Shown here: positions 3,996-56,346 of the stretch, piece after piece
How the letters are laid out: the number at the start of each line of letters is the position of its first letter
Position numbering within the stretch: position 1 is the first letter of the stretch
Source: Minisyncoccia bacterium
GTDB lineage: Bacteria; Patescibacteriota; Minisyncoccia; Phycocordibacterales; Phycocordibacteraceae
Assembly (NCBI GenBank): GCA_038228545.1
Contig: JBBRPE010000003.1
Location: forward strand, 64,442-128,441
DNA: 64,000 bases
Direction of reading: 5' to 3'
Position numbers and translations under genes: made by a program
The notes under the pieces: model-generated
What the model saw: only the letters and a program-made list of their open reading frames with translations
Told to the model about the DNA's origin: nothing
Database searches by the model: none

Positions 3996-5027
3996 CTATC
4001 TGCCTGATGCAGACCAGTGCGGTGGGTCGTTCGGCAACTGATTATAAAATCCATACTGTCCGGCATGAGCTCTGAGCCACGTGTATGCGCCCGGTCCGAG
4101 TCGTATATCAACAGCAGTTCCTGACGTGTGATTCGAGCCATTGCCTCCAAGCGAGCATGGCACCGCGGCAGTTCTGGTGGAACACACAGCACTGCCATTC
4201 ACCAGACGACACCCGTTGTTATTCCACGCAGCTGTCTGGTCGTCTGGAGATCGATACCCAGACGACACCCGCAAATCTACACCTTCTCTGAGGGCAGCAG
4301 TACGCATAGATACAAAACGCTGAACCGTATCTGCCAAATCTCTATGAGACCCGATGTCAGCAGAACTGGGGAATGGAACGAGCTGTGATTCTGGTATCGC
4401 TGTACAACTACCTCCGCCTCCGCCTGGGCCCGGGCCGCCAGTACCACCTCCAGGACCAGTTAGACTTCCAGCGTCCGTACTACCCACAATTCCGTTTGTG
4501 ATACTCCCAAACAAACCTTGGATACGCTGTGGTGTTGTTTCGCTTATGCACATGTCTTCACCATTGTCAGCAAGAATGCTATTCCATGGACCAAATGTTG
4601 AACCGGAAGCTGTACCGTCTGATGCATTTGGTTTATAGAGTTTTTTCATTATGTAATCGACGATGAGCCATGCGGCAAGCACGATTGCAAGTCCAATCAT
4701 CACATTAATAAACATCCCTCTTCCTTTGCTTCTCGCTTCAGCATTACTGCCGTTAAACATCCAAATAAATCCCGCGTAAACGAGCGCGAGCGTAGCGAAG
4801 ATACAGCCGAGAGAAATCATAAGATTTATGACATTTTGTGTCGTTGCAAGTACACAACCATAGGAAGCGGCCGAGGTATGGCCGGGAACACCATCGCAAT
4901 TACATTCTGTTGGGACTATCGGCCCGAAGAAATTTGCGGTTGCCGCATGGGCTGACACAGGAACTATAAGCACGATGAACGCCAGGGTGAGTCCTGCACT
5001 GAGCTTTGTTAGTGTGCTGTACTTCAT
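3996..5027 (-). CDS. Secreted fusion protein: T4SS-pilin-like (TrbC/VirB2-like) N-domain, Gly-rich linker, C-terminal peptidase M15 (VanY/LAS-type zinc peptidoglycan peptidase)
   Basis: Signal peptide (…VSAHA). Then IVPTECNCDG and two TM helices (LMISLGCIFATLALVYAGFIWMF … INVMIGLAIVLAAWLIVDYIMKK). These match the paralog array at 19.9-22.1 kb. Linker is GPGGGTGGPGPGGGGGS. The C-terminus has SGYRSPDDQ, HTSGTAVDI and DPPHW, which are M15 zinc-ligand motifs. Confidence 0.7.
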   Translation of the reverse strand: MKYSTLTKLSAGLTLAFIVLIVPVSAHAATANFFGPIVPTECNCDGVPGHTSAASYGCVLATTQNVINLMISLGCIFATLALVYAGFIWMFNGSNAEARSKGRGMFINVMIGLAIVLAAWLIVDYIMKKLYKPNASDGTASGSTFGPWNSILADNGEDMCISETTPQRIQGLFGSITNGIVGSTDAGSLTGPGGGTGGPGPGGGGGSCTAIPESQLVPFPSSADIGSHRDLADTVQRFVSMRTAALREGVDLRVSSGYRSPDDQTAAWNNNGCRLVNGSAVCSTRTAAVPCSLGGNGSNHTSGTAVDIRLGPGAYTWLRAHAGQYGFYNQLPNDPPHWSASGR

Positions 5028-5587: not shown

Positions 5588-6631
5588 TTAGCGAGCCTGA
5601 CATCTTGGGTCGGACGACCTTGCTCCTGGAACTGCGCAACGAGTCGCCGAGCATTGCCATGCAGAAAGATTCTGTGTGTACAGACTACAGGCCACCTGTG
5701 TGTTAGTTTGACCATTTTGGGCGGCCGAAACACAGTCCTGATAGAGACGTTCCTTACCGGGTACAACCGAGGAGTCACATCCACCGAGTCGTTGACCCGC
5801 ATAGTGGAGCGCGTTTCCCTCGCATCTTTGTGTAAACGCAGTCGTACAGGCTATACCGTTCACTCTAAGGGGCGAGGTTGTGAGGTTAATCTGCCAGAGC
5901 CCAACAGAGTAGCTCCGCCCGTTACCACGATCCAATTTATCCGAGGTGGAAAGGATGGCGACTTGTCCGCCCGCACTCTCGAGATTGCAAGTTCTTGACG
6001 CTGCTTCTCCAAGAGCTGCGAAGCAAGTACTGGATAGACTCTGCACACTACACGCTCCGCTTGCAGGAAGAGTACAACTCCCTCCACCCCCCACTCCACC
6101 AAAACCACCTCCTCCACTTCCAGCGTTCGTGCCTCCCACGACGCCATTTGCAATACTTCCGAATAGTCCTGGGATTACTGTCGTCTCCCTCGGTTGTATA
6201 CACCAGGAGCCTGCCGCTGCAGGAGAGAGAATTTTATTCCACGGACCATAGGAACTTTCGTTGTAGAGCGTCTTCATGATGAAGTCTACGAACAGCCAGG
6301 CAGCAAGAACGATGAACATACCAATAACGACATTCAGTAACATACTCTTCGCCTTACTGCGCATTTCGGGATTTGTCGGATTGAGCATCATACTTGCGCC
6401 TGCGTAGGCTGCGACAAGAACGAATGCAATAACCCCAATGGAAACGGCCGCATTCATAAGGTTCTGAATGAGTTGCAGTACACCTCCGTAATCACACGGA
6501 CATGCGGTGCACTCCGTCGGAACTATTGAAAAGGTTGGGTCAAGAAGCGATAAATTTGCGGCATACACGGGAAGAGCCGCGCTTACAAAAAGAGTAAGCG
6601 AGAGAGAAGTAACCAGGAGAGCCCTACGCAT
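5588..6631 (-). CDS. Secreted fusion protein: T4SS-pilin-like N-domain, Gly-rich linker, C-terminal lytic transglycosylase-like (GH23/SLT-like) domain
   Basis: Start set at MRRALLVTSLSLTLFVSAALPVYA (signal peptide). IVPTECTACPCDYG plus two TM helices are paralogous to 3996..5027. Linker is GSGGGGFGGVGGGGS. The C-terminus has ES…(30 aa)…GLWQIN and HYAG, which resemble the SLT catalytic E-S and GLMQ/AYNAG motifs. Confidence 0.6.
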   Translation of the reverse strand: MRRALLVTSLSLTLFVSAALPVYAANLSLLDPTFSIVPTECTACPCDYGGVLQLIQNLMNAAVSIGVIAFVLVAAYAGASMMLNPTNPEMRSKAKSMLLNVVIGMFIVLAAWLFVDFIMKTLYNESSYGPWNKILSPAAAGSWCIQPRETTVIPGLFGSIANGVVGGTNAGSGGGGFGGVGGGGSCTLPASGACSVQSLSSTCFAALGEAASRTCNLESAGGQVAILSTSDKLDRGNGRSYSVGLWQINLTTSPLRVNGIACTTAFTQRCEGNALHYAGQRLGGCDSSVVPGKERLYQDCVSAAQNGQTNTQVACSLYTQNLSAWQCSATRCAVPGARSSDPRCQAR

Positions 6632-6814
6632 ACTTGTATTGTAGCCTCTCAGAAGGCCCTGGCACTGCTTTGTTCCCACCTTATAAATCTGCTAAGGTAG
6701 CCAAGAGGAAGCTCAAATTCGCTTCGCTCGGGCCATATGCGTTGCTTGCACGTATATGAACCCTTCGTTCGGCGGATTACACTGAATCCTGATTCAATGT
6801 ACTCACCTCACTCA

Positions 6815-6885
6815 GGGTCCATAGTTTAGTGGTAGAACATCGGTCTCCAAAACCGATAGTGTAGGTTCGATTCCTACTGGGCCCG
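6815..6885 (+). tRNA. tRNA-Trp (anticodon CCA)
   Basis: Cloverleaf readable by hand. Acceptor gggtcca/tgggccc with discriminator g. Anticodon loop ctCCAaa. T-arm ggttcgattcc. CCA is not encoded. Confidence 0.8.
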
Positions 6886-6932
6886 CAAATAGAAAAGCGC
6901 CATTCGGCGCCTTTTCTATTTGCGGGCCCAAG
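6886..6932 (+). terminator. Perfect 20-bp-stem hairpin downstream of tRNA-Trp
   Basis: gggcccgcaaatagaaaagcgcc-attc-ggcgccttttctatttgcgggccc. The stem re-uses the tRNA 3' end. Confidence 0.5.
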
Positions 6933-7006
6933 CAAACCTGGGAGGTTTGCTTGTAGGAATCGAAGATGTTGCGGAGAAATGGAGGAAATGGGGTCAGGAA
7001 ATGGGG

Positions 7007-7684
7007 TCAGCCACCATTCTTTTTCGGACGTCCGACTGTCCGGAGAGTTTGCTCGAGACCGTGTCTCTTCACCATGGTATCAAGCCACACGTCGTTCCCA
7101 AACGGAATACTCTTTCTTTCAGACTGTTCGAGTGCTTCTTCTTCGCTTGGGGTCTGCGGCTCGTCGAGCCATGCAAGATAGTCAGGGGGAGAGGATACGG
7201 GCCAGGCTGAGAGGAGTTTCTGTTGTTGTGCAGTACCACTTTCTCTTCGCCAGGCACTTCCCCACCTCCACTGTGGTGCACTCTTTACCAAGTTTGCTTT
7301 CTTAGCGTTTCGCTCAACGTATCTAACCAGAGTTAGAAAATACTTGTCCTCTCCACAGAGAAAGGACTTGTAGCGTCCCTGATACAGATGACCTTCGCCG
7401 ACCGTTCCTTTTGCGATATGCCATCGGCGGGTATGAGTGTTGGTGACCCAAGACATGAATTTCGAGAGATCGCCGTCTTCTTTCGGGTACAGGACAAGAT
7501 GCCAGTGATTGGGCATGAGGCAATACGCGAGTATGCGCATATCGAAGGTTTCTGCTGCTTCTTCCAGGATGGTCTCGAACATGCGATAGTCGTCAGGAGT
7601 GTCGAAAATCTGAGCACGGACATTGGCGCGATTAAGGACGTGATATACATGTTTTCCCACGTCGACACGTTCGATGCGTGGCAT
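7007..7684 (-). CDS. Y1 (HUH) transposase, IS200-like / REP-associated tyrosine transposase-like
   Basis: HuH motif in YCLMPNHWHLVL and conserved HVYHVLNRANVRAQIF. At 225 aa it is longer than classic IS200 TnpA, so it may be RAYT-like. Confidence 0.7.
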   Translation of the reverse strand: MPRIERVDVGKHVYHVLNRANVRAQIFDTPDDYRMFETILEEAAETFDMRILAYCLMPNHWHLVLYPKEDGDLSKFMSWVTNTHTRRWHIAKGTVGEGHLYQGRYKSFLCGEDKYFLTLVRYVERNAKKANLVKSAPQWRWGSAWRRESGTAQQQKLLSAWPVSSPPDYLAWLDEPQTPSEEEALEQSERKSIPFGNDVWLDTMVKRHGLEQTLRTVGRPKKNGG

Positions 7685-7789
7685 GCAGTAAGGGTATCAC
7701 GGGGAAATGGTGGCTGACCCCATTTATCCGAAGAAACTTCTGCGAGCATTTTGTGATTCTGAGAGCAAAATCCGCAAAGTGGACAGCGA

Positions 7790-7818
7790 GTGTAGCTCGA
7801 GTTTCCTACTGGGCCCGC
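7790..7818 (+). pseudogene. tRNA-Trp 3'-fragment duplicate (pseudo-tRNA)
   Basis: agtgtagctcgagtttcctactgggcccgc versus the tRNA 3' part agtgtaggttcgattcctactgggcccgc. Confidence 0.55.
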
Positions 7819-7892
7819 GACCGAGCCGAGTGACGACGAGGCGAGAGTTGTGACCGCAGAGGGCCCAAGCAGGCGTGGGGCGCCTGCGTGTA

Positions 7893-8008
7893 GGAATCGA
7901 AAGGCGCAGGCCGGGTAGGCCGAGCCGGGGTCGACCAAAATCGCAGCAGCGATTTATGGGTGACTGATGCCTGCCTGATTCTTATCAGGACACTTCCTAC
8001 TGCCCACT
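7893..8008 (+). repeat. tRNA-flank structured repeat, copy A
   Basis: Has ggaatcgaaa…ggggtcgaccaaaat-[hairpin aaatcgc/agca/gcgattt]-atttatgggtgactgatgcctgcctgattcttatcaggacac. Ends with a degenerate tRNA-Trp 3' end (ttcctactgcccac). Paralogous to copies at 44143-44260 and 43555-43680. Confidence 0.6.
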
Positions 8009-8507
8009 ACCGCACATACACAAACACTCCATCCTTCTTCTCCCCTTCCCACGTCGGAAGCGGAAATAGATTACAGACAACACGTGCTCCGGGCGCAAGT
8101 TCTCGCGAGAGCTTTCGTTCGAGACGCTTCATAATGTGCGAAATACCAAACACGGTCACTACCGAGTACCGGGATAAATCGACAGACCACATGTCCCTCC
8201 ATTCAACCGATGCACGTGAACCAAGCCCTTCCTTGCGAATGGCTCTATTTGAAAGCCACACAAGAAGTGGATTTATCTCAACACCTCGTGCTTCTATTCC
8301 AAGTCGTGCAGCAGCTATGACGAGACGGCCATCGCCACTTCCAATATCAATAAGACGGTCTCCGGGCCCTAGTTTCGTGCTGCTCAACATACTTTGCATA
8401 AGAAGTGTGTCAGTCGGTATATAGAGCGCCCCATTGAGTAGCCCTAGAAAATAGGCACAGAGCGCTGAACCGACCACAAGCAGGAGGTAGAGGAGAAGTG
8501 CCCACAT
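8007..8507 (-). CDS. Class I SAM-dependent methyltransferase with N-terminal TM helix
   Basis: SAM-binding motif LIDIGSGDGRLV. Hydrophobic N-terminus. Lies downstream of the type IV pilin gene. Confidence 0.6.
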   Translation of the reverse strand: MWALLLYLLLVVGSALCAYFLGLLNGALYIPTDTLLMQSMLSSTKLGPGDRLIDIGSGDGRLVIAAARLGIEARGVEINPLLVWLSNRAIRKEGLGSRASVEWRDMWSVDLSRYSVVTVFGISHIMKRLERKLSRELAPGARVVCNLFPLPTWEGEKKDGVFVYVR

Positions 8508-15853: not shown

Positions 15854-15902
15854 GTTAGTTGAATATAACGCGCGGAACATAAATCTGCATCTCCACTTCT
15901 TG

Positions 15903-15925
15903 TACCGGGGGTGGGAGTCGGCTCC
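15903..15925 (-). pseudogene. Duplicate of the tRNA-Leu(TAA) 3' end
   Basis: 18-nt identity (taccgggggtgggagtcg) with 16076-16093. Lies 173 bp downstream of the gene on its strand. Confidence 0.5.
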
Positions 15926-16075
15926 CGTCACTAATTCGCTTCGCTCAGAAGTGCGCCAACCGGAGCTCGTCACATTCTCCTGCCCCGCAGACGTGACTAC
16001 GCTGTTCGACTCCCACACGGACTGTGCGAAGGCACTATCCTCCCCGGTACAGCTTTATGGCTTCGCCTAAATCAG

Positions 16076-16158
16076 TACCGGGGGTGGGAGTCGAACCCAC
16101 ACGGCATTTCTGCCAGGGGATTTTAAGTCCCCGCTGTCTACCATTCCATCACCCCGGC
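16076..16158 (-). tRNA. tRNA-Leu (TAA)
   Basis: Long variable arm. Anticodon loop cuUAAaa. T-arm gggttcgactccc. Confidence 0.75.
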
Positions 16159-16184
16159 CTCTGTGGAAGATACCACATGACCAT

Positions 16185-17360
16185 GTGCTACCGTATATAT
16201 TCATGTCACTCCGTACTACCCTACGCAAAATTCGTCGCGCAATAACGCGCTACACCCCCTTGGTAGAGGTGAGTATTTCGCGAGAGAATCTACTCCACAA
16301 TCTACATACCTATCAAAGCGCTTACTCGAAAGCGGCGTTTGCTCCCGTACTTAAGAGCAATGCCTATGGGCACGACATTGGCACTGTAGCTCGTATTCTT
16401 GACCGTGAGAAGATTGCGTTCTTCATGGTGGATTCCTATTACGAAGCTCGGCGTCTTCGTCAGGCAGGCATTCGTTCACGCATTCTGGTTATGGGCTACG
16501 TACGCCCAGAGGACATAGCTCGGAGCCGTCTCCGCAACGTAGACTTCGGTATCACGGATATTGAACAGCTTCGTACACTCACAGAACTCGTAAAGCATCC
16601 AACACGTATCCACTTGAAGCTTGATACCGGCATGCACCGCCAAGGTATTCCATTTGACCTCATTGCAGAAGCTGAGGATCTTATCAAAGGAGAAGAGCAA
16701 TTAGAGCTCGTCGGTATTTGCTCGCATTTTGCGGATGCGGATAATACTAACGAAACGTTTACCGAACGACAGATTGCAGTATGGAGAGCAGCTGCCGAGG
16801 AGTTTACGCTTGCCTTTCCTACTATCGAATATCGCCATATCGCAGCCACCAAGGGCGTACGTTTCGGGAAAGACACAGAAACAAACGTTGCTCGTCTCGG
16901 CATTGGCCTCTATGGCTTTGACACGTCGCCATCCTCAGAAACTCCTCTTCGGCCAGTGCTTGAAATGCGTTCGCTTATTAGTTCGGTGCGCGACATTCAG
17001 AAAGGGGAATCGGTCGGCTATAACGCAACGTTCACCGCGGACTATCCCATGAAGATAGCTACGGTACCAGTTGGATACTACGAAGGAATAGACCGCCGAC
17101 TTTCAAACAGAGGCTCCATGCTGGTAAAAGGAATAGTCTGTCCAATCATTGGACGTGTTTCGATGAACATGACGTCCATTGATGTTTCGAATGTTCCGAG
17201 CGTAACTGCGGGCGACTCGGTCGTTGCAATAAGTCGAAATCCGGCCGATGATAATTCAGTGAGCGCAATGGTGAAAGCGGTAAGTTGTGAGGACTACCGT
17301 GAGACCGAATACGTACTCCTCGTACACCTTGCCCCGCACCTCGAACGAATTGTGGAATAA
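16185..17360 (+). CDS. alr: Alanine racemase
   Basis: PLP-lysine motif PVLKSNAYGHD. Full-length similarity. Confidence 0.85.
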   Translation: MLPYIFMSLRTTLRKIRRAITRYTPLVEVSISRENLLHNLHTYQSAYSKAAFAPVLKSNAYGHDIGTVARILDREKIAFFMVDSYYEARRLRQAGIRSRILVMGYVRPEDIARSRLRNVDFGITDIEQLRTLTELVKHPTRIHLKLDTGMHRQGIPFDLIAEAEDLIKGEEQLELVGICSHFADADNTNETFTERQIAVWRAAAEEFTLAFPTIEYRHIAATKGVRFGKDTETNVARLGIGLYGFDTSPSSETPLRPVLEMRSLISSVRDIQKGESVGYNATFTADYPMKIATVPVGYYEGIDRRLSNRGSMLVKGIVCPIIGRVSMNMTSIDVSNVPSVTAGDSVVAISRNPADDNSVSAMVKAVSCEDYRETEYVLLVHLAPHLERIVE

Positions 17361-17505
17361 GGTTGAATATCGGAGCACTTCCGTATAGTATTTACCAATC
17401 GTCCGAAAGGACGTGTATTTACGCCCATACGTAGGCTTGTGGCCTGCTCACTCGGCGCACAAGAAATATCTCACCAAGAATGATATATTTCTTGTGACCT
17501 CGTTC

Positions 17506-17578
17506 GCGCCCATAGCTCAGCTGGTAGAGCAGATCCCTCTTAAGGATAAGGTCCCTGGTTCGAGCCCAGGTGGGCGCA
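17506..17578 (+). tRNA. tRNA-Lys (CTT)
   Basis: gcgccca…ctCTTaa…ggttcgagcc…tgggcgca. Followed by a terminator hairpin at 17591-17620. Confidence 0.75.
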
Positions 17579-17854
17579 CATGAAAGAAAACACTGCGTCT
17601 GCACGCAGTTTTTCTTTACATGTGCGAGGCGGAGTCATGTTTTCATTCCCCTGAAAACGGACGAGCCCGGGTCGGGGTTGCGAGCTAATTTGTAAATCCT
17701 GGAACAAATGAGCCGCAAACCGTGACCACAAGTGCGCCCACGCAGACGTGGGGTCGCGGAATCACGTCCCATGCAAGGCAACAAATCACCTAATCTGCTA
17801 CGATACACACATGCCCCTGGGGCGGAATCGGTAGACGCGAATTGGAAGTAAAGT

Positions 17855-17935
17855 GCGGGGATGGCGAAATGGTAGACGCGCCTGCCTTAGGAGCAGGTCC
17901 CTTCGGGGGTGGAGGTTCAAGTCCTCTTCCCCGCA
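17855..17935 (+). tRNA. tRNA-Leu (TAG)
   Basis: Long variable arm (ggtcccttcgggggt). Anticodon loop ctTAGga. T-arm ggttcaagtcc. Confidence 0.75.
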
Positions 17936-17995
17936 CTTTGTTTCGAATAGCCTGCCGCGGGACGTAGATGAAGTGGGGCTTCATCTACGCGCACT

Positions 17996-18046
17996 GGTCC
18001 CTTCGGGGGTGGAGGTTCAAGTCCTCTTCCCCGCACTTTGTTTCCA
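17996..18046 (+). pseudogene. Duplicate of the 3' 44 nt of tRNA-Leu(TAG) plus 9 nt of flank
   Basis: Identical ggtcccttcgggggtggaggttcaagtcctcttccccgcactttgttt. Preceded by a perfect 10-bp hairpin (gtagatgaag-tgggg-cttcatctac). Confidence 0.55.
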
Positions 18047-18125
18047 ATAGCTAATAAGCACAAAAGAAAGACGCCGTACGGCGTCTTGTGCGTTCCGGGG
18101 CAAACAGTCAGTATCTAGCGGATAC

Positions 18126-20273: not shown

Positions 20274-20633
20274 CTAGCGGCCCTGTGTAGTGTAGGGAGC
20301 GGTTGGATACGTCGGTGTGGATGGGTTGAGGTTGAAGGTACCAATAAGAATGTGTACCAAGCCCCAAACCGAGACCATGACAAAGAAGCCGATGAGACCC
20401 CAGAGCATGAGTTGCTTGCCGCTTTCACGCTTCTCTTCATCATGTCCGCCCTGAATGAAGTACTGGAAGATACCCCAGATGAAGACGATGAATGCGAGTG
20501 CGAAAACGATAGGCACCGCGACGTTGTTGATAAGGTCGATAACTATTCTGCTCGCATCGTTGACGCTGTTCACCTGCGCGAAGGCAAGGAACGGGAGAGC
20601 AAAGGCAGCACCGATATAGCCGATTTTCTTCAT
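20274..20633 (-). CDS. T4SS-pilin-like (TrbC/VirB2-like) protein
   Basis: Signal peptide (…LAFA|Q). Two TM helices flank the GGHDEEKRESGKQLMLWG motif. Confidence 0.65.
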   Translation of the reverse strand: MKKIGYIGAAFALPFLAFAQVNSVNDASRIVIDLINNVAVPIVFALAFIVFIWGIFQYFIQGGHDEEKRESGKQLMLWGLIGFFVMVSVWGLVHILIGTFNLNPSTPTYPTAPYTTQGR

Positions 20634-20736: not shown

Positions 20737-21267
20737 TTACGGAGGCGTTGGATTGGAGTTAATGATGGTTGTACCTGAATTACTTGGTGCTGGTGTTTGT
20801 GTCGCACCACTCGATGGGAGTGTTGTCTGTGTCTGGGCTGCAGGAGCGTTCGACTGATTAAACACCGGGTACTGCGGACGAACGGCAGAACTGAGGCCGA
20901 GCGTGCCGTTTATGACATTAATCAAGCCCCATACGGAAAGCATGATAACGAACCCGATAAGTCCCCACAGGAGAAGTTGCTGGCCTTCCTTACGCTTCTC
21001 TTCATTACTGCCACCGAGGATGAAGTAACGGTAGATACCGACGATGAAGACAACGAATGCAAGAGCAAAAACAATAGGAACAACAATACTATCGATGAAC
21101 GAGATGCCGCAATTGAGAAACGTGCCGAGATTCGTAATGTCGCAACGTCCGGTGCCGCCGGGTGCAAATGGGTCCGTTGGTGCGGCGTAGGCCAGCTGTG
21201 TGAATCCGAGAAATGCCACTGAAACGAGTGCAAACAGGCGAGCGATAAGAATACGGAAAGATGTCAT
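20737..21267 (-). CDS. T4SS-pilin-like (TrbC/VirB2-like) protein
   Basis: Same core (VVPIVFALAFVVFIVGIYRYFILGGSNEEKRKEGQQLLLWGLIGFVIM). C-terminal Thr/Pro/Ser-rich tail. Start taken at MTSFRILIARL. Confidence 0.6.
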   Translation of the reverse strand: MTSFRILIARLFALVSVAFLGFTQLAYAAPTDPFAPGGTGRCDITNLGTFLNCGISFIDSIVVPIVFALAFVVFIVGIYRYFILGGSNEEKRKEGQQLLLWGLIGFVIMLSVWGLINVINGTLGLSSAVRPQYPVFNQSNAPAAQTQTTLPSSGATQTPAPSNSGTTIINSNPTPP

Positions 21268-30508: not shown

Positions 30509-30682
30509 CTCCGCTCGCATAGCGAACAGAACCGCAGCCCGACACTCAGGTGTCGGGTTTTGCGTTGTCTCCTCGTGGCGGAATTTCCCTAGAGCGCTTC
30601 GCTAGTCGGGAAATTCCTTCTCGGCTCTGCGCAAAACTACTCTGCCTTCGGAATAGCGGTTCTGTTCGCTACGCTCGCTCCG
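30509..30682 (+). repeat. Structured intergenic repeat, family X copy 1
   Basis: Starts at the rpsA stop. Outer helix tagcgaacagaaccgc/gcggttctgttcgcta. Terminator-like hairpin cccgacactcaggtgtcggg+tttt. Inner stem ggaatttccc/gggaaattcc around the conserved tagagcgcttcgctagtcgg. Paralog at 41429-41578. Confidence 0.65.
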
Positions 30683-41428: not shown

Positions 41429-41578
41429 GCAAGAAAGGTCCGCAGCCCGACACTCAGAAGTCGGGTTTTGCGTTGTCGTCTCCTAGCGAAATATGCCTAG
41501 AGCGCTTCGCTAGTCGGCATATTTCTTCTCGACTCTGCGCAAAACTACTCTGTCTTCGGAATAGCGGACCTTTCTTGC
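41429..41578 (+). repeat. Structured intergenic repeat, family X copy 2
   Basis: Outer helix gcaagaaaggtccgc/gcggacctttcttgc. Same conserved core as X1. Inner stem gaaatatgcc/ggcatatttc compensates relative to X1. Confidence 0.65.
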
Positions 41579-41628: not shown

Positions 41629-41775
41629 GAAATAAAAGAATTTCCTGTAAGCAGCCGTAGAATACGAAGCCAGCGAGGTGAGTCATCCGACCGAGGTCTT
41701 CGAGTGGCGGTGCGAGCCGATGGCTGGCGACTTATTCTACGTGTCGCCCTGGAAGGCGGAGTCCTCTTTTATTTT
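41629..41775. repeat. Intergenic repeat, family Y copy 1
   Basis: gaaataaaaga…[long imperfect hairpin ccgtagaata…tattctacg]…tcttttattt. About 95% identical to 56211-56346. Sits immediately 3' of the ATP-grasp gene stop. Confidence 0.6.
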
Positions 41776-43298: not shown

Positions 43299-43554
43299 AT
43301 ACCTATTTTACCGTGTCTTTCGAAATCCAGAAACAAGCACTGTGTGTGGGCTATATCTAGATATGGAATGCGACACCGAGATAGTACGGCCAGATAATAA
43401 GTGCGAAAACCGCTGGCCAGAGAGTCAGTTGCAAATAACCGACGGTAAACAACCACGCGGCAATCCAAACACCTCCCCACAAACTATGGTGCTCTACTTT
43501 TATTTTTTCCATATACCTAGTATAGCAACGGAAAATCCGCCCGAAGGCGGTTTC

Positions 43555-43680
43555 CAGTTGCGGAGAGGGAGAGATGTGTCCTCACAAGAATGAGGCACGC
43601 ATCGGTCACAGATATTTTTCTGCTGAAAAATTCCGCGACCCCGCCTCGGCGCCGGCGCGCCTCCGGCTTTCGAATCTCCC
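43555..43680 (-). repeat. tRNA-flank structured repeat, copy C
   Basis: Minus strand reads gggagattcgaaa…gcggggtcgcgg-[hairpin atttttc/agca/gaaaaat]-…gtgaccgatgcgtgcctcattcttgtgaggacac. Then atctctccctctccgca, a copy of the tRNA-Ser 3' end. Confidence 0.6.
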
Positions 43681-43746
43681 ACGTCCAGTCCCCAACTGGA
43701 CTCCTCTCCACAAATGAAAAGACCCGCCTGTGCGGGTTTTCATTTG

Positions 43747-43833: not shown

Positions 43834-43998
43834 AGGTTGCTTCGCACACGGGGTGGCTTCGTGTCCTGCTCGGACACTCCCTTCGGATGAATTGTAGCCC
43901 CGCTACAATTCATAGCCACCTCTCCAGAGTCGAACGTTCGTAATCCTAGCATTTATGGCCCTAAAAATGTAGGATGTATCTGTTCCGACCTTATATAA

Positions 43999-44070: not shown

Positions 44071-44142
44071 TGAGACACGAGCCGCCGCAAGGCGGTTTTG
44101 TGCTACATGGTCCCACGAGCACGATGTGGGACATCGTGCGGG

Positions 44143-44260
44143 GGAATCGAAACGCGGAGCCGTGTCGACGGCGAGCGGGGGTCGACCAAAATTGTAGCAA
44201 CGATTTATGGGTGACCGATGCGTGCCTGATTCCTATCTGGACACTTCCCCGTGGGATCAC
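44143..44260 (+). repeat. tRNA-flank structured repeat, copy B
   Basis: ggaatcgaaa…gggggtcgaccaaaat-[hairpin aaattg/tagcaa/cgattt]-atttatgggtgaccgatgcgtgcctgattcctatctggacac. Then ttccccgtgggatcac, a copy of the tRNA-Glu 3' end. Confidence 0.6.
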
Positions 44261-44328: not shown

Positions 44329-45342
44329 ATGAAAGCATCCCATATCGTACTTACCTCGCTCGTGTTTGCCGTTGTTGCCTTTTCCGGCGTCGGTGTAGAA
44401 ATAGCTAATGCACAGACGTCTACAAAGACCTGTGTCTCACTCTCGAGCAATATCCGCTACGGGACGACCGATGCGCGCACTGATGGCGACGTAAGCCGCC
44501 TTCAGGCGTTTCTTGTGACCCAGGGCCTTTTCAATCAGAACGACATGGGTACGCTCCACTTCGGACGCATCACGCTTGCATCCGTCGTAAAATTCCAAGC
44601 CCTAAACGGTCTCCCAACCACTGGATACGTCGGTCCTATGACTCGGTCTGCAATTAGCTCCATTACTTGTGGCGGAACTCCTACCTCGCCCGTGTCGCTC
44701 TATAGACTTAACCCGGGTATCAGCGCGGTCGGCTCAACAGTTTCTATTACCGGCTTCGGCTTCACGGCTAACAACACGGTTCTTATGGACGGTAGTGTTG
44801 CGGCACGCGACGTACCCATAACGTCTTCCATCGCCATCGCCTGCACAACCAGCCCGTCATGCCATGGCGGAATCAATCAGACGATTCAATTCACCATTCC
44901 GTCCTCCCTTGCACCAAACTGCCCTATCGGCTCCATGTGTCCGATGTACATGCGCCTCGTAACACCTGCTACGTATCAGATAACGGTTCAAAATGATAAT
45001 GGCACTAGCAACACGCTCTCATTGGTAATCGGCACACTGAACGGAACCCAAACACTTTCCATTACGAGCCTCGATGCTCCATCGTCACTCTCGAGTGGCC
45101 AGACCGGAACATGGACCGTACATGCGCAGTCGTGGGCGAACATGAATCTTCACTACTCGGTGGTATGGGGAGATGAAGTAAGCTATGGCGTGACTTCAAA
45201 TGTTGCGGCTATGGAAACCACATCAAGTTCTGCTACCTTCACACACGTATACTCTCGCGGAGGTACCTATACACCCACGTTTACCGTTACGGATGACCAA
45301 GGCCACAACGTGACCGCATCCAATACCCTCACGGTCTACTAG
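44329..45342 (+). CDS. Secreted peptidoglycan-binding-domain protein with Ig/PKD-like repeats
   Basis: Signal peptide. PG_binding_1-like segment (DVSRLQAFLVTQGLF…FQALNGLPTTGYVGPMT). Thr/Ser-rich beta-repeat C-terminus. Confidence 0.55.
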   Translation: MKASHIVLTSLVFAVVAFSGVGVEIANAQTSTKTCVSLSSNIRYGTTDARTDGDVSRLQAFLVTQGLFNQNDMGTLHFGRITLASVVKFQALNGLPTTGYVGPMTRSAISSITCGGTPTSPVSLYRLNPGISAVGSTVSITGFGFTANNTVLMDGSVAARDVPITSSIAIACTTSPSCHGGINQTIQFTIPSSLAPNCPIGSMCPMYMRLVTPATYQITVQNDNGTSNTLSLVIGTLNGTQTLSITSLDAPSSLSSGQTGTWTVHAQSWANMNLHYSVVWGDEVSYGVTSNVAAMETTSSSATFTHVYSRGGTYTPTFTVTDDQGHNVTASNTLTVY

Positions 45343-45346
45343 CTCG

Positions 45347-45967
45347 CTAGAGTCCGAGTTCTTCCCTACTGATTGCCCCTTCACGGAGAATATAGGGTGT
45401 GCCATCGATAAACGTAACCACAGTAGAGGGTGTCCCGCCCGCACGCTCTCCAGCGTCAATCACCATGTCTATGAGATGCGAGAACTGTCCGAATTGACTG
45501 AGTATTTCTTGCACAGTAGCCAGTGTTTGAAATCCCGAACGATTTGCAGATGTAGCGGTAATAGGCCCATCGAGTGCGTGCGCGAGTGCACGAGCAAAGT
45601 CTTCGTCCGGTATACGCACACCCACCTGCCCATTCAACATGAGTTCGTCAGGAAGATGGCTCCTACCGGGGACAACAAGAGTGAGCGCTCCAGGAAGATG
45701 TCGTTGTATAAGTTCACGACCCTTCTCGTGCAGCTCGGTGTGTTTTTCTACTGCAGTCATATCCATAAGCACGATTGAAATTGGTTTCTTTTTTTCACGT
45801 CCTTTGAGCTCACGAAGTGTCGCAAGTGCTGGCCGATTAAGTGCGTCCACTGCGAGGCCGTAGAGTGTATCCGTTGGATAGAGCACGATGCCACCTTTCT
45901 TAAGGACATCACGAGCGCGCGACAGTGCCGTGTCGAATGTATCCTCGCTGAGACGGATAATTTCCAT
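45347..45967 (-). CDS. tsaC: L-threonylcarbamoyladenylate synthase (YrdC/Sua5 family)
   Basis: YPTDTLYGLAVDA and SANRSG motifs. 206 aa. Confidence 0.8.
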   Translation of the reverse strand: MEIIRLSEDTFDTALSRARDVLKKGGIVLYPTDTLYGLAVDALNRPALATLRELKGREKKKPISIVLMDMTAVEKHTELHEKGRELIQRHLPGALTLVVPGRSHLPDELMLNGQVGVRIPDEDFARALAHALDGPITATSANRSGFQTLATVQEILSQFGQFSHLIDMVIDAGERAGGTPSTVVTFIDGTPYILREGAISREELGL

Positions 45968-46010
45968 ATATTGAATACTAGGCTAAGAATTGCTATTCTG
46001 CGAGAGTTCT

Positions 46011-46053
46011 GCGCGGTTACCTGCCTGCCGGCAGGCAGGGCTCAGTTGGTAAG
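46011..46053 (+). pseudogene. tRNA-Val 5' fragment duplicate interrupted by a 20-bp perfect palindrome
   Basis: gcgcggtta-CCTGCCTGCCGGCAGGCAGG-gctcagttggtaag versus the tRNA-Val 5' end gcgcggttagctcagttggtagag, which lies 17 nt downstream. Confidence 0.5.
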
Positions 46054-46069
46054 TTGAATGTGTGAATAT

Positions 46070-46142
46070 GCGCGGTTAGCTCAGTTGGTAGAGCGCGTCA
46101 TTGACGTTGACGATGTCGGGGGTTCGAATCCCTCACCGCGCA
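46070..46142 (+). tRNA. tRNA-Val (GAC)
   Basis: gcgcggt…cgtcaTTGACGTtgacg…ggggttcgaatccc…accgcgc a. Anticodon GAC. Confidence 0.75.
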
Positions 46143-46237
46143 CAAAACGAAGTCGCCTCAAGCGTAAGCTTGGGACTGCTATCGTTTTGCAGTAGCGGTG
46201 AGAGATTCGAAAACCGTGCGACTGAATCCCAGTATTT

Positions 46238-47296
46238 TTAAACTCTCGTCACATTCCTCCAAAATATCTCCCCCGCCTTCTTCCACGAAAACTGTTCCGC
46301 TTTCTCACGACAGGCAACGCGAGACAGCGTAAGACATTTAAGAGCCGCTTTTTCTAGGTCGTCACTGAGTACACCGTCCACACCATTCGTGATAATGTCG
46401 CGCGGACCGAGAACATCGTGCGCGGCTACCGGCACACCACATGAAAGCGCTTCTATAACGACAAGCCCGAATGTATCAGTACGAGATGGAAACACACATA
46501 CATCTGATGCAGAAAGCCAGTCAACAAGCTCCTGCCCTTTTTTGTAACCCAAAAAAGTAGCGGACTTGGCATAGCGCTCGCTGAATTCTTCGAGTTGAGG
46601 ACCACCACCGATAACCACCTTGGTACCAGGTAGATTGAGCTGTAGAAATTCTTCAACGTTTTTCTCATGGGCAACGCGTCCGACATAGACAAAAAGCGGA
46701 CGTGGAAGCACCTTCGCTTCTGCAGGCGTTCGCTCTTCGTTCCGAACAAAGAAATCTATATCAACGCCGTTTGGTGTTATGACGACATTCGTATTCTTTC
46801 GTTTCTCAAATTCACTCGCGAGGGTTTGCGTGGCCACAAATAATGCCTTAGCGGGAGCGTGGAACCAATGCAGATACCAGTACGCAGGCTCCACAAAGAG
46901 TTTTCCAAGAAAGACGTAGTGCTCCACATACAACGGCCAATTCGTATGGAAGTAGGTAGTGAACGGAATATTGTCTTCAATACATACGTTACGTGCGCTG
47001 TAACCAAGCGATCCTTCCGTGGATATATGAACATAATCCGGTTTCTCGAAGCGAATATGTTCCCGCATTCCGTGTTTTGGAAAGAGCGTAACGGAGACCT
47101 CAGGATAGATAGGGAGAGGACTCACGAGTGAAAAAAGTCCGGGATGCACAATAGTAACCTCAACGCCTTTTTGTTCGAGTTCTTTTTTTATATTTTGAAT
47201 ACTCGTAACGACACCGTTCACTTGAGGAGTCCATGTGTCCGTTACGATAAGCAGTTTTGGCATAGGTCGAGGCGAGTCAGGGCGAGTATAGCGCAC
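46238..47296 (-). CDS. Glycosyltransferase family 4 (GT-B, group 1)
   Basis: C-terminal GT1 domain with FVYVGRVAHEKNVEEFL (EX7E-like region). 352 aa. Confidence 0.75.
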   Translation of the reverse strand: MRYTRPDSPRPMPKLLIVTDTWTPQVNGVVTSIQNIKKELEQKGVEVTIVHPGLFSLVSPLPIYPEVSVTLFPKHGMREHIRFEKPDYVHISTEGSLGYSARNVCIEDNIPFTTYFHTNWPLYVEHYVFLGKLFVEPAYWYLHWFHAPAKALFVATQTLASEFEKRKNTNVVITPNGVDIDFFVRNEERTPAEAKVLPRPLFVYVGRVAHEKNVEEFLQLNLPGTKVVIGGGPQLEEFSERYAKSATFLGYKKGQELVDWLSASDVCVFPSRTDTFGLVVIEALSCGVPVAAHDVLGPRDIITNGVDGVLSDDLEKAALKCLTLSRVACREKAEQFSWKKAGEIFWRNVTRV

Positions 47297-56210: not shown

Positions 56211-56346
56211 ACTCTCTGGAAGCAGCCGTAGAATAGGAAGCCAGCGAGACGAGTCATCCGACCGAGTTCTTCGAGTGGCGGTGCGAGTCGATGGCTGGCG
56301 ACTTATTCTACGTGTCGCCCTGGAAGGCGAAGTTTTCTTTTATTTC
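56211..56346. repeat. Intergenic repeat, family Y copy 2
   Basis: gaaataaaaga…ccgtagaata…tattctacg…tcttttatttc. Lies 18 nt downstream of the lepA stop on the minus strand. Confidence 0.6.

What the first reader, a model, noticed from the sequence alone, without database searches (positions are those of the whole stretch)
15903..18046. Recurrent partial tRNA duplications around intact tRNA genes (Leu-TAA, Leu-TAG; also Val at 46011-46053 and Trp at 7790-7818)
An 18-nt copy of the tRNA-Leu(TAA) 3' end lies 173 bp downstream of the gene. Downstream of tRNA-Leu(TAG), the 3' 44 nt of the tRNA plus 9 nt of flank are repeated after a perfect 10-bp hairpin (17996-18046). Upstream of tRNA-Leu(TAG), at 17821-17842, there is a 5' D-arm-like fragment. 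Upstream of tRNA-Val there is a copy of its first 22 nt split by a perfect 20-bp palindrome (CCTGCCTGCCGGCAGGCAGG). A 30-nt tRNA-Trp 3' fragment sits beyond the IS200-like gene. Five of eleven tRNA loci in the window carry such scars. This implies frequent site-specific integration and excision at tRNA genes, or a systematic tRNA-linked duplication process.
Basis: seen in the sequence. Interest (0 to 1): 0.55.

Follow-up and report, generated by a model that had tools for sequence, protein, structure and literature searches.

The report
Structured repeat modules trailing tRNA genes
The "partial tRNA copies" are the ends of small, conserved, folded modules that sit just after many tRNA genes in this tiny-genome (Patescibacteria) bacterium; each module carries both a mirror-image copy and a direct copy of its own tRNA's tail, much like the old, still unexplained RtT repeats behind the tyrosine tRNA genes of E. 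coli.

Summary
The fragments are real and far beyond chance. They occur at 7 of 11 tRNA loci, not 5. They are not integrase scars. Most are the termini of a ~150-190 nt module placed directly 3' of a tRNA gene, on the same strand.

The module has four parts:
- a terminator-like hairpin;
- an arm that is the reverse complement of the last ~21 nt of that tRNA, split by a conserved side hairpin (loop YGGGR);
- a body, usually a conserved four-way junction (29 of 39 pairs show compensatory changes);
- a direct copy of the last 14-19 nt of the tRNA.

The antisense arm can pair either with the tRNA end or with the module's own terminal copy.

The family has no Rfam match. I found it only in Patescibacteria, behind at least 12 different tRNA species. 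It is present or absent at syntenic sites, forms tandem arrays, and once bounds a 2.5-kb cargo. Neither the window nor that cargo encodes a recombinase.

The closest known thing is the E. coli RtT/rttR 178-bp repeat, which has the same logic but no sequence homology.

Best reading: an RtT-like tRNA-trailer RNA that spreads and decays by recombination at the repeated tRNA end. A guided mobile element remains possible.

The parts
6886..6964 (+). Trp locus, left module 1. Terminator-like hairpin 6886-6922; antisense acceptor strand CGGGCCCA 6923-6930; side hairpin 6931-6951 (loop TGGGA); antisense T stem + T loop GTAGGAATCGAA 6953-6964. Downstream of tRNA-Trp (6815-6886).
   Evidence: With the tRNA 3' end it folds into one long hairpin, -72.2 kcal/mol, z = -12.3.
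6965..7818 (+). Trp unit A ('type B' body). The hairpin halves 6965-6976 and 7742-7781 are interrupted by a Y1_Tnp unit (ORF 7007-7684 on the minus strand, 20-bp inverted repeats at 6999-7018 and 7706-7725). The unit ends in a 29-nt copy of the tRNA-Trp 3' end at 7790-7818.
   Evidence: The uninterrupted type-B hairpin is seen after tRNA-Ser in L042.
7861..8009 (+). Trp unit B (type A). Antisense acceptor 7861-7867; side hairpin 7868-7889 (loop TGGGG); antisense T arm 7890-7901; four-way-junction scaffold to 7993; decayed direct copy TTCCTACTGCCCAC 7994-8007.
   Evidence: CM R1 114.7 bits; fold -68.2 kcal/mol. A relative (L039) has the clean single unit with a perfect 18-nt repeat.
15902..16074 (-). 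Leu(TAA) unit with a diverged body. Antisense acceptor 16039-16050; side hairpin 16017-16038; antisense T arm 16004-16016; body 15921-16003; direct 19-nt copy 15902-15920.
   Evidence: CM R1 24.4 bits, E = 4e-5. Fold -71.1 kcal/mol, z = -4.6.
17580..17757 (+). Lys locus. Terminator palindrome 17580-17626; partial scaffold (P2-P3 only); then antisense acceptor GTGCGCCCAC 17732-17741 and a TGGGG-loop hairpin 17742-17757. No terminal direct copy.
   Evidence: CM R1 20 bits, E = 9e-4, model positions 13-105.
17896..18051 (+). Leu(TAG) minimal unit. A 56-nt direct repeat (17896-17951 and 17996-18051, 55/56 identical) flanks a degenerate antisense acceptor and a family-type hairpin at 17964-17988 (loop TGGGG). 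No scaffold.
   Evidence: (family D7).
43530..43745 (-). Ser unit (type A). Terminator 43712-43745; antisense acceptor 43703-43711; side hairpin 43681-43702; antisense T arm 43668-43680; scaffold 43560-43680; direct copy ATCTCTCCCTCTCCGCAA 43558-43575; second, paralogous terminator 43530-43555.
   Evidence: CM R1 129.9 bits; fold -78.5 kcal/mol, z = -6.2; terminator scan; empty orthologous site in L043.
43834..43925 (-). 5'-side insertion at tRNA-Ser. The displaced 12-nt 5' fragment lies at 43914-43925. Then come 80 nt with hairpins at 43887-43913 (loop GGGG) and 43861-43877 (GTGTCC..GGACAC) and a 7-nt antisense AGCCACC.
   Evidence: L042 has the same upstream flank abutting the tRNA directly.
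44071..44260 (+). Glu unit (type A). Terminator 44079-44099; antisense acceptor 44109-44116; side hairpin 44117-44139 (loop TGGGA); antisense T arm 44140-44152; scaffold to 44244; direct copy TTCCCCGTGGGATCA 44245-44259.
   Evidence: CM R1 124.5 bits; fold -67.3 kcal/mol, z = -4.3; empty orthologous sites in L042 and L043.
46011..46069 (+). 5'-side event at tRNA-Val. The displaced copy of tRNA nt 1-21 (46011-46019 plus 46040-46051) is split by a 20-bp perfect palindrome (46020-46039), followed by an 18-nt spacer.
   Evidence: L042 has an identical tRNA-Val with the flank abutting it directly. Reproduced in the independent assembly L045.
46144..46213 (+). Val 3' remnant. Terminator-like hairpin 46144-46189 and antisense GCGGTGAGAGATTCGAAAA 46195-46213. 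No scaffold and no direct copy.
   Evidence: 11 of 12 match to the antisense of its own T arm.

Best explanation
WHAT IT IS (shown). The window is a Patescibacteria chromosome. Seven of its 11 tRNA genes are followed, on the same strand, by members of one family of small structured modules. A full module reads as follows:
1. The tRNA 3' end.
2. A terminator-like hairpin.
3. The reverse complement of the tRNA's acceptor 3' strand.
4. A conserved side hairpin (AGCA..YGGGR..TGCGT).
5. The reverse complement of the T-stem 3' strand and the whole T loop.
6. A body.
7. A direct copy of the last 14-19 nt of the tRNA, always starting at the last two T-loop bases.

The commonest body is a four-way junction (P2, P3, P4) closed by P1, with invariant junction bases: UCGAAAG, GAGGCGGGGUCG, GUGACCGAUGCGUGCC and GGACAC.

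The antisense arm has two mutually exclusive partners. One is the upstream tRNA end, giving a hairpin of about 45 bp with the terminator at its tip. The other is the module's own terminal copy. That second pairing closes the body with a helix that copies the acceptor/T-stem stack and the 3' tail of the cognate tRNA.

HOW IT MOST LIKELY WORKS (inferred).
- Like the RtT RNA of the E. coli tyrT-tyrV operon, the module is a tRNA-trailer RNA made by read-through from the tRNA promoter.
- Its tRNA-like closing helix and 3' tail would let the tRNA-processing enzymes (RNase P at the 5' side, 3' trimming, CCA addition) cut it out as a discrete RNA of about 150 nt.
- The conserved junction is a binding or catalytic core of unknown function.
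- At the DNA level, the repeated tRNA end (often extending into the trailer and terminator) is a substrate for recombination and replication slippage.
- That would produce tandem arrays, precise loss (empty sites), truncated remnants such as those at Val, Lys and Leu-TAG, chimeras, and occasional capture of other DNA (Y1_Tnp here, a 2.45-kb cargo in L004).
- Bodies are exchanged between loci and genomes, while the two tRNA-matching arms stay locus-specific.
For: Architecture and matching:
- Seen in the sequence.
- Of 59 tRNAs in Patescibacteria loci, 26 have the antisense of their own T loop + T stem (at most 1 mismatch in 12) within 140 nt downstream. The non-cognate control is 2.6%.
- Unusual T loops covary: TGCAAGT with ACTTGCA, TCCGATT with AATCGGA, TTCGAGT with ACTCGAA.
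- Nineteen of 59 have a direct copy of at least 10 nt of the specific 3' end, against 0.4% for non-cognate.

Structure:
- RNAalifold gives a four-way junction; 23 of 39 pairs are compensatory in 13 sequences.
- In 28 sequences, 95.9% of cells pair, against 74.8% in shuffles and 36-47% in slid controls. Twenty-nine of 39 pairs are compensatory.
- A conserved G.U pair (24 of 28) shows that the tRNA-sense strand is the folded one.
- Both alternative folds are very stable.

Family:
- The covariance model finds 5 copies in the window and 34 matches (E <= 0.01) in the other loci searched.
- Pattern scans found it only in Patescibacteria MAGs and metagenome contigs, nearly always right after a tRNA.
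- It has no Rfam family.

RtT analogy:
- Each E. coli 178-bp unit ends in the last 19 nt of tRNA-Tyr and holds the antisense GGGGAAGGAT.
- The Rfam RF00391 consensus is closed by exactly that helix.
- rttR is reported to be encoded by one repeat unit of the tyrT operon (PMC3318445, citing Bosl & Kersten 1991).

Turnover:
- Filled versus empty syntenic sites.
- Tandem arrays in L019, L030 and L039.
- Body identity is decoupled from tRNA identity. Identical tRNA-Met genes carry bodies only 82% alike, whereas the Met and Ser bodies of different MAGs are 94% alike.
- Terminator-like hairpins lie after both the tRNA and the terminal copy.

No recombinase genes were found.
Against: - No expression or processing data. 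Transcription of the body requires read-through of a good terminator-like hairpin, and no promoter-like site was found in front of it.
- The antisense arm is complementary to tRNA positions 54-58 and to the trailer and terminator. These play no part in closing the module, so the RtT-like processing model does not explain why they covary with the tRNA.
- When the terminal copy decays (Trp unit B, L018, L005a, L006), the antisense arm still matches the tRNA. The closing helix P0 therefore seems less protected than the tRNA:antisense palindrome.
- How the two arms become matched to a new tRNA is not explained.
- The function of RtT itself is unknown, so the analogy explains form rather than purpose.
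- The alignment used was fitted to the model.
Confidence: 0.5

Rival explanations
1. A non-autonomous mobile element with nucleic-acid-guided target choice. The antisense arm, as RNA or folded single-stranded DNA, finds the 3' end of a tRNA gene. The conserved junction and the YGGGR hairpin recruit a recombinase or HUH enzyme encoded elsewhere in the genome. Insertion is exactly 3' of the tRNA and leaves the terminal copy. Retargeting happens by rewriting the arm.
For: - Presence or absence at syntenic sites, bounded by the repeat.
- The module sits at the far end of a 2.45-kb cargo in L004.
- Modules lie behind at least 12 tRNA species, each with a matched arm.
- Bodies are 91-95% identical between MAGs labelled Saccharibacteria and Paceibacteria and between different tRNAs, and are not co-diverging with the tRNAs.
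- Distribution is patchy: few genomes among 185,579 species.
- A very conserved Y1 HUH transposase is present in the window and lies next to such modules in 2 of 4 loci examined.
Against: - No recombinase lies in or beside any module.
- The Y1_Tnp flanking motif ATGGGGTCAG occurs only around its own gene. That gene also sits in unrelated contexts.
- Both halves of the arm are antisense to the same strand, unlike IS110 bridge-RNA loops.
- The 14-19-nt or longer direct repeat does not fit IS200/IS605 insertion.
- The T-stem-specific 5 nt are embedded between conserved element sequences. Simple copying from the target at insertion is therefore hard to picture.
- A mismatched chimera exists: in L019 the unit after tRNA-Leu carries a Cys-type arm.
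- The high similarity between hits is partly forced by the exact 22-nt search pattern.
Confidence: 0.25
2. By-products of replication errors at tRNA terminators. Fold-back or quasi-palindrome template switching at the terminator hairpin copies the tRNA tail in inverted orientation. Slippage makes the direct duplications. The bodies are passenger repeats with no function.
For: - The antisense arm is an almost perfect mirror of trailer plus tRNA tail, with the terminator loop at the centre (z = -10 to -12).
- It follows the genomic sequence (encoded CCA where present, trailer otherwise), not the mature tRNA.
- The direct repeat often runs on into a paralogous terminator (L011 at least 50 nt, L002, window Ser).
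- The Leu-TAG locus is a plain 100-bp tandem duplication.
Against: - It does not explain a body with invariant junction bases and 29 of 39 covarying pairs.
- It does not explain the homologous side hairpin at the same position (between tRNA positions 65 and 66) in many loci and genomes.
- It does not explain the fixed start of the direct copy at the last two T-loop bases.
Confidence: 0.12
3. Classical att-site scars. Integrase-carrying islands or prophages integrated into tRNA 3' ends and were later deleted, leaving attL/attR remnants.
For: - Direct repeats of the tRNA 3' end are the hallmark of such integration.
- Occupancy differs between relatives.
- One 2.45-kb insert exists in L004.
Against: - No integrase in 64 kb or in the L004 insert.
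- Inserts are 100-190 bp of conserved structured sequence, not random remnants.
- The antisense copy is unexplained.
- The only match in 2.9 million viral contigs was a chance coding hit.
Confidence: 0.04
4. Assembly or binning artefact.
For: The window comes from a MAG, and repeats and palindromes can be mis-assembled.
Against: - The same architecture appears in more than 20 independent assemblies from different projects.
- A Logan assembly contig (L045) is 100% identical to window 44671-46495, including the palindrome-split Val fragment.
Confidence: 0.01

Closest known systems
RtT RNA / rttR, the 178-bp repeats of the E. coli tyrT-tyrV operon (Rfam RF00391)
   Same: - The unit lies directly downstream of a tRNA gene on the same strand.
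- It ends in a direct copy of the last ~19 nt of that tRNA.
- An internal segment is antisense to the T-stem 3' strand and closes the unit's structure.
- Unit size is similar (178 bp versus 150-190 bp).
- Tandem arrays end in a fractional last unit.
- Function is unresolved.
(. The old literature, Egan & Landy 1978 and Bosl & Kersten 1991, is cited from memory and via PMC3318445.)
   Different: - No sequence or model homology. RF00391 does not hit the window at E <= 10. My model scores the RtT units only 6.9 bits, E = 0.15.
- RtT serves one tRNA (Tyr) in enterobacteria. This family serves at least 12 tRNA species, each with retargeted arms.
- The antisense here covers the whole 21-nt tail plus the trailer and terminator, and is split by a conserved hairpin.
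- The body topology differs: a four-way junction here, an extended stem with two hairpins in RtT.
- Each unit here brings its own terminator.
tRNA-gene integrative elements (tyrosine-integrase islands and prophages)
   Same: A direct repeat of the tRNA 3' end bounds the insert. The tRNA gene stays intact. Occupancy varies between relatives.
   Different: No integrase. The inserts are 100-190 bp of conserved folded sequence. An inverted copy of the target is present. The repeat starts at a fixed T-loop position next to a conserved GGACAC.
IS200/IS605 elements and their gene-less derivatives (PATEs); REP/RAYT systems
   Same: Hairpin-rich small units. Insertion lies immediately 3' of a specific sequence. 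In IS200/IS605, target choice works by base pairing with an internal guide next to a hairpin. A Y1 HUH transposase gene is present in the window.
   Different: - IS200/IS605 guides are 4-5 nt and leave no long direct repeat.
- The Y1_Tnp gene here is a separate unit with its own flanking motif, which is absent from the modules.
- The link between the gene and the modules is not shown.
IS110/IS1111 bridge (seek) RNAs
   Same: A structured non-coding RNA of about 150-180 nt that carries sequence matching the insertion target. The target match differs from copy to copy on a conserved scaffold.
   Different: No DEDD/serine recombinase gene was found. Bridge-RNA loops pair with both strands of the target on either side of a 2-nt core, and leave no long repeat. 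Here both halves are antisense to one strand and a 14-19-nt repeat remains. The comparison with bridge RNA rests on my own knowledge.
tRNA-like domains in other RNAs (tmRNA, bacterial Y RNA YrlA, viral TLS)
   Same: A helix mimicking the acceptor/T-arm stack with a tRNA-type 3' tail closes a larger RNA. This suggests handling by tRNA enzymes.
   Different: No Rfam match. There is no T loop in the closing helix, because the body replaces it. The mimic is specific to the neighbouring tRNA rather than generic.

Membership tests
RtT RNA (RF00391) | Unit immediately downstream of a tRNA gene, same strand, ending in a direct copy of the tRNA 3' end | tested here: met
   Window Trp, Leu-TAA, Ser and Glu. 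For E. coli.
RtT RNA (RF00391) | Closing helix between an internal antisense segment and the terminal tRNA copy | tested here: met
   P1 and P0 here. RF00391 consensus.
RtT RNA (RF00391) | Match to the RF00391 covariance model (sequence and structure homology) | tested here: not met
   No RtT hit at gathering score in the whole window, nor at E <= 10 or E <= 5 in the Ser/Glu and Trp regions. The reverse test gave 6.9 bits, E = 0.15.
RtT RNA (RF00391) | Released as a discrete RNA by processing of the tRNA operon transcript | not testable with these tools
   No transcript data are available.
Integrase-mediated tRNA-gene integrative element | Direct repeat of the tRNA 3' part at both ends of the insert | tested here: met
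Integrase-mediated tRNA-gene integrative element | Tyrosine or serine recombinase gene inside the insert, next to an att site | tested here: not met
   Pfam scan of the 30 longest window ORFs and of the L004 cargo ORFs found no recombinase domain. Inserts of 100-190 bp cannot encode one.
IS200/IS605 (including PATE derivatives) | Y1 HUH transposase acting on the element's own subterminal hairpins | tested here: inconclusive
   A Y1_Tnp gene is present. It is an independent unit with its own conserved flanks, found in unrelated contexts, and its motif is absent from the modules.
IS200/IS605 (including PATE derivatives) | Insertion 3' of a 4-5-nt target without a target duplication | tested here: not met
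   Direct repeats run from 14-19 nt up to at least 50 nt.
IS110/IS1111 with bridge/seek RNA | DEDD-type recombinase gene adjacent to the RNA | tested here: not met
   None in the window or in the loci inspected.
IS110/IS1111 with bridge/seek RNA | Guide loops whose two sides pair with opposite strands of the target around a 2-nt core | tested here: not met
   Both guide halves are the reverse complement of one contiguous strand, tRNA positions 54-73.
REP/REPIN-RAYT | Dispersed repeats share the hairpin motif that flanks the RAYT gene | tested here: not met
   ATGGGGTCAG occurs only at 6988-7010 and 7714-7723, around the gene.
Any described RNA family (Rfam 15) | Covariance-model match to the body | tested here: not met

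The most novel reading that the evidence does not exclude
Two novel readings are not excluded.

1. The modules are a recombinase-less, programmable insertion system. A conserved RNA or ssDNA scaffold carries a 21-nt guide arm that directs insertion exactly behind whichever tRNA gene it matches. The arm and terminal copy are rewritten from the target at each move, by an enzyme supplied in trans, possibly the ultra-conserved Patescibacteria Y1 HUH protein.

2. The cell keeps one dedicated 'top-half mimic' RNA per tRNA species. Each would pair with, sense or buffer its cognate tRNA or pre-tRNA. The two alternative pairings of the arm would act as a switch.
Probability: 0.2. Interest if true: 0.85.

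Novelty: new variant of a known kind. Interest (0 to 1): 0.62.

Why it matters
- Patescibacteria have genomes of about 1 Mb with little spare DNA. Yet in this window roughly two thirds of the tRNA genes carry a 150-190-nt conserved structured module, which implies either a function or a very effective way of spreading.
- The family gives the 45-year-old, functionally unexplained E. coli RtT repeat a second, much larger and more diverse counterpart. Many tRNA species, many genomes and clear covariation make the question 'what are tRNA-tail repeats for, and how do they arise?' testable by comparative genomics and metatranscriptomics.
- If the guide-like arm really directs insertion or tRNA recognition, it would be a new programmable nucleic-acid-guided system.
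- Practically, these modules create false 'tRNA fragment' and att-site calls, and they break assemblies at tRNA loci.

Tried and rejected
- **Integrase scars.** Pfam on the 30 longest window ORFs and on the L004 cargo, plus PADLOC and PHROGs on the cargo, found no recombinase.
- **Y1_Tnp as the driver.** It has more than 7,900 homologues at 65-76% identity across the phylum. Its contexts are unrelated to tRNAs in 2 of 4 loci. Its flanking motif is not in the modules. In the window it interrupts a type-B body that is intact in L042. I treated it as a secondary insertion; the link is unproven rather than excluded.
- **Known RNA families and ribozymes.** I considered hammerhead, twister-sister, box C/D, H/ACA, tmRNA, YrlA and T-box by eye. 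Rfam scans at gathering score and at E <= 10 gave nothing.
- **Retroelement primer-binding site.** The antisense arm is not complementary to CCA unless CCA is encoded in the gene. It follows the genomic trailer instead, so it is not a PBS for mature tRNA.
- **Phage link.** The only match in 2.9 million viral contigs was a chance coding hit.
- **Non-Patescibacteria pattern hits.** L001, L008, L009, L012-15, L020 and L021 are coding or chance matches with no tRNA nearby.
- **A 5'-side family.** I looked for 5' fragment duplications in 59 tRNAs. Only the window's Ser and Val have them, so I treat them as separate, local events.
- **Strain-level allele search.** Exact-protein look-ups gave only one usable contig, L045, which is identical to the window.
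- **Simple longest-match test of cognate specificity.** It was noisy, because the arm is split and orthologous tRNAs are similar. I replaced it with the T-arm test.
- **Literature searches.** Searches for such modules in Patescibacteria found nothing relevant. Bosl & Kersten 1991 is not held in the library.

Full report
**Observation**

ARAGORN finds 11 tRNA genes in the window. I compared every tRNA with the whole window on both strands and read the loci directly.

- Leu-TAA: 19-nt 3' copy at 15902-15920.
- Leu-TAG: 56-nt direct repeat at 17896-17951 and 17996-18051 (55/56 identical), with a 10-bp hairpin between the copies.
- Val: 5' copy split by a 20-bp palindrome (46011-46051).
- Trp: 29-nt 3' copy at 7790-7818.

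The 'D-arm-like' piece at 17821-17839 is weak (10 nt exact).

Seven of 11 loci are affected.

Exact matches of 15-19 nt next to the cognate tRNA cannot be chance. An independent Logan assembly contig is identical over 1,825 bp that include the Val fragment.

**Anatomy**

Written in tRNA orientation, the loci share one plan:
1. tRNA 3' end.
2. Terminator-like hairpin.
3. Antisense of the acceptor 3' strand (7-12 nt).
4. Side hairpin.
5. Antisense of the T-stem 3' strand plus the whole T loop (xxxxxAATCGAAAG).
6. Body.
7. Direct copy of the tRNA from the last two T-loop bases to position 73/74.

In Trp (unit B), Glu and Ser the body is a conserved sequence of about 100 nt. The pattern GTGACYGATGCNTGCCT...GGACAC occurs 3 times against 0 expected.

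The side hairpin is itself homologous between loci and genomes (AGCAxxxx-YGGGR-xxxxTGCGT). The same hairpin type sits in the Leu-TAG spacer.

The window is an ordinary Patescibacteria chromosome segment with ClpB, GyrA, a class I aminoacyl-tRNA synthetase, FtsZ, IF-2, LepA, MurJ and RNase P RNA. No recombinase domain was found among its 30 longest ORFs.

**Family**

One scan of 185,579 species genomes with the body pattern gave 21 loci. All 13 matches in Patescibacteria MAGs (Paceibacteria/Parcubacteria, and MAGs labelled Saccharibacteria) show the same plan. Ten of them lie directly behind an intact tRNA: Met, Arg, Glu, Ser, Gly or Cys. Of the other three, L004 lies 2.5 kb downstream of its tRNA-Gly, and L007 and L017 are cut short upstream by the end of the DNA held. 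The hits in other phyla are coding or chance matches with no tRNA nearby.

The metagenome scan added 11 loci, nearly all behind a tRNA: Ala, Glu, Met, Gly, Arg, Ser or Trp. The single hit in viral contigs is a chance coding match. No Rfam family matches, even at E <= 10.

**Structure**

Thirteen units align into a four-way junction:
- P1: antisense T stem plus AA, paired with TTCCxxx of the terminal copy.
- P2: a short stem with a tandem-GA internal loop and a 5-bp hairpin.
- P3: about 15 bp.
- P4: about 9 bp.
- Invariant linkers join them: P1-UCGAAAG-P2-GG-P3-GAUGC-P4-(0 nt)-P1. This is a cloverleaf-like connectivity.

Twenty-three of 39 pairs show compensatory change in this set.

A covariance model built from this alignment finds five copies in the window:
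- Ser, 130 bits.
- Glu, 124 bits.
- Trp, 115 bits.
- Leu-TAA, 24 bits, E = 4e-5.
- Lys, 20 bits, E = 9e-4, partial.

It also finds 34 matches (E <= 0.01) in the other loci searched.

On 28 hits, 95.9% of cells pair, against 74.8% in shuffles and 36-47% in slid controls. Twenty-nine of 39 pairs have double changes. The alignment is model-fitted, which favours the structure.

A G.U pair conserved in 24 of 28 sequences would be C.A on the other strand. The folded strand is therefore the tRNA-sense strand.

Outside P1, the antisense acceptor pairs with the acceptor part of the terminal copy (P0). P0 plus P1 thus reproduce the acceptor/T-stem stack and the 3' tail of the cognate tRNA.

ViennaRNA recovers this fold for whole units: -67 to -78 kcal/mol, z = -2.8 to -6.2. 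It recovers equally well the alternative fold, in which the same arm pairs with the upstream tRNA end across the terminator: -65 to -72 kcal/mol, z = -10 to -12.

**Matching to the tRNA**

Among 59 tRNAs in the Patescibacteria loci, 26 (44%) have the antisense of their own T loop + T stem (at most 1 mismatch in 12) within 140 nt downstream. For non-cognate T arms the figure is 2.6%.

Rare T loops are mirrored: TGCAAGT by ACTTGCA, TCCGATT by AATCGGA, TTCGAGT by ACTCGAA, TTCGACT by AGTCGAA.

The arm therefore covers tRNA positions 54-73/74, although the terminal copy starts only at about position 59. It runs on into the trailer and the terminator. It includes TGG only where CCA is encoded in the gene. 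So it mirrors the gene or primary transcript, not the mature tRNA.

Where the terminal copy has decayed (Trp unit B, L018, L005a, L006), the arm still matches the tRNA.

**Turnover**

Sua5 homologues led to three syntenic loci from relatives with the gene order Val - Sua5 - Glu - Ser. Occupancy differs.

| tRNA | window | L041 | L042 | L043 |
|---|---|---|---|---|
| Glu(ttc) | filled | filled (variant body, 16-nt repeat) | empty | empty |
| Ser(cga) | filled | none | left module plus 'type B' hairpin body | empty (tRNA-CCA, then about 20 nt, then the same downstream gene) |

For tRNA-Val, L042 has an identical tRNA with its upstream flank abutting it directly. In the window the corresponding flank abuts the displaced 5' fragment.

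Other signs of turnover:
- L039 has a near-identical tRNA-Trp with one clean unit and a perfect 18-nt repeat. The window's Trp locus is that arrangement plus an extra type-B unit, into which the Y1_Tnp gene has inserted.
- Relatives show tandem arrays: L019 has two units after Cys and four or five after Lys; L030 and L039 have two each.
- L019 also has a chimera, a Cys-type arm behind tRNA-Leu.
- L004 has 2.45 kb of cargo (an RHH protein and two unknown ORFs, no recombinase) between tRNA-Gly and the arm-scaffold-repeat end.
- Body similarity is decoupled from tRNA similarity. Identical tRNA-Met genes carry bodies 82% alike. tRNA-Glu(ctc) genes 97% alike carry bodies 61% alike. Bodies behind Met and Ser in different MAGs are 94% alike. 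Part of that similarity is forced by the exact 22-nt search pattern.

**Closest known**

The architecture recalled the 178-bp repeats behind tyrT/tyrV of E. coli, so I fetched them. Each unit ends in the last 19 nt of tRNA-Tyr and contains GGGGAAGGAT, the antisense of ATCCTTCCCC, about 100 nt upstream.

Rfam's RtT model (RF00391) hits four units there, and its consensus is closed by exactly that helix. The logic is therefore the same. Homology is not: RF00391 does not hit the window, and my model scores the RtT units only 6.9 bits (E = 0.15).

rttR is described as encoded by one repeat unit of the tyrT operon (PMC3318445). It is described as still of unknown mode of action in bioRxiv 10.1101/2024.07.17.603846.

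**Mechanism**

Shown:
- The modular architecture.
- The folded sense strand.
- The two alternative pairings of the arm.
- tRNA-specific matching.
- Presence or absence at orthologous sites.
- Absence of recombinase genes.

Inferred (best reading, about 0.5):
- The module is an RtT-like trailer RNA made by read-through.
- It is closed by a tRNA-like helix with a tRNA-type 3' tail, so that tRNA-processing enzymes can release it.
- The repeated tRNA end, often with trailer and terminator, drives unequal recombination or slippage. That yields arrays, precise loss, remnants (Val, Lys, Leu-TAG), chimeras and capture of other DNA.

Not explained by this reading:
- Why the arm mirrors T-loop positions 54-58 and the trailer.
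- How arms become matched at a new tRNA.
- What the junction core does.

The main rival (about 0.25) is a non-autonomous, guide-bearing mobile element served in trans by an unknown enzyme. Quasi-palindrome template switching at the terminator may well create or maintain the mirror arm, but it cannot account for the conserved body (about 0.12 as a full explanation). Classical integrase scars and assembly artefacts are essentially excluded.

**Verdict**

This is a new, Rfam-absent family that is a new variant of a known but unexplained kind, the RtT-type tRNA-tail repeats. It is of moderate to high interest.

Noticed in passing
window 6977-7741 (ORF 7007-7684, minus strand); L023, L026, L029: A 225-aa Y1_Tnp (IS200-like/RAYT-like) protein is 65-76% identical across more than 7,900 Patescibacteria homologues. 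That is more conserved than Sua5 (at most 69%). It is always flanked by AATGGGGTCAGCCACCATT upstream and by its reverse complement overlapping the stop codon, often with extra CTGACCCCATT copies. It looks like a domesticated or very constrained HUH unit. It lies next to tRNA-trailing modules in 2 of 4 loci examined.
   Followed up: partly
window 43834-43925 (minus strand) and 46011-46069 (plus strand): There are 5'-side insertions into tRNA-Ser and tRNA-Val. They displace a 12-nt or 21-nt copy of the tRNA 5' end and restore the gene. The Ser insert has a GGGG-loop hairpin, a GTGTCC..GGACAC hairpin and a short antisense, like a mirror image of the 3' modules. Such 5' events were not seen at 48 other Patescibacteria tRNAs.
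   Followed up: partly
window 41645-41774 and 56216-56345: A 130-nt repeat, 93% identical, lies just past the 3' ends of two minus-strand genes (an unknown 401-aa ORF and LepA). It looks GC-rich and structured, has no Rfam match, and scores only about 9 bits with my model.
   Followed up: no
window 30532-30659 and 41440-41567: A 128-nt repeat, 89% identical, is bracketed by inverted flanks and contains a hairpin with the loop motif GAGCGCTTCGCT. The reverse motif GAGCGAAGCGAA also tops insertions in P2, P3 or P4 of many modules (window Leu-TAA, L019, L036, L041). This suggests a small hairpin insert that travels on its own.
   Followed up: no
L004 4383-7005 (minus strand): In a MAG labelled Saccharibacteria, 2.45 kb lies between tRNA-Gly(tcc) and an arm-scaffold-repeat end. 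It encodes a CopG/RHH protein, a 293-aa protein and a 158-aa protein with no family match. This is a small island bounded by the module, with no recombinase.
   Followed up: partly
L019 5707-5905: A chimeric unit lies behind tRNA-Leu(taa). Its antisense arm matches the neighbouring tRNA-Cys, while its terminal direct copy matches tRNA-Leu. Arms and ends can therefore be recombined between units.
   Followed up: no
window 20327-20516 and 20892-21081; 4464-4523 and 6116-6175: Diverged internal repeats (71-73% identical) lie inside neighbouring paralogous genes. These are small membrane proteins, and two T4SS-pilin-domain proteins at 3996-5027 and 5588-6679. They are ordinary gene duplications.
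   Followed up: no
window tRNA genes: Only tRNA-Phe and tRNA-Gly(ccc) encode CCA, and both lack a module. All seven module-bearing tRNAs lack an encoded CCA. The terminal copy at Glu is followed by CCA (GATCACCAG), as if it were the original gene end.
   Followed up: no
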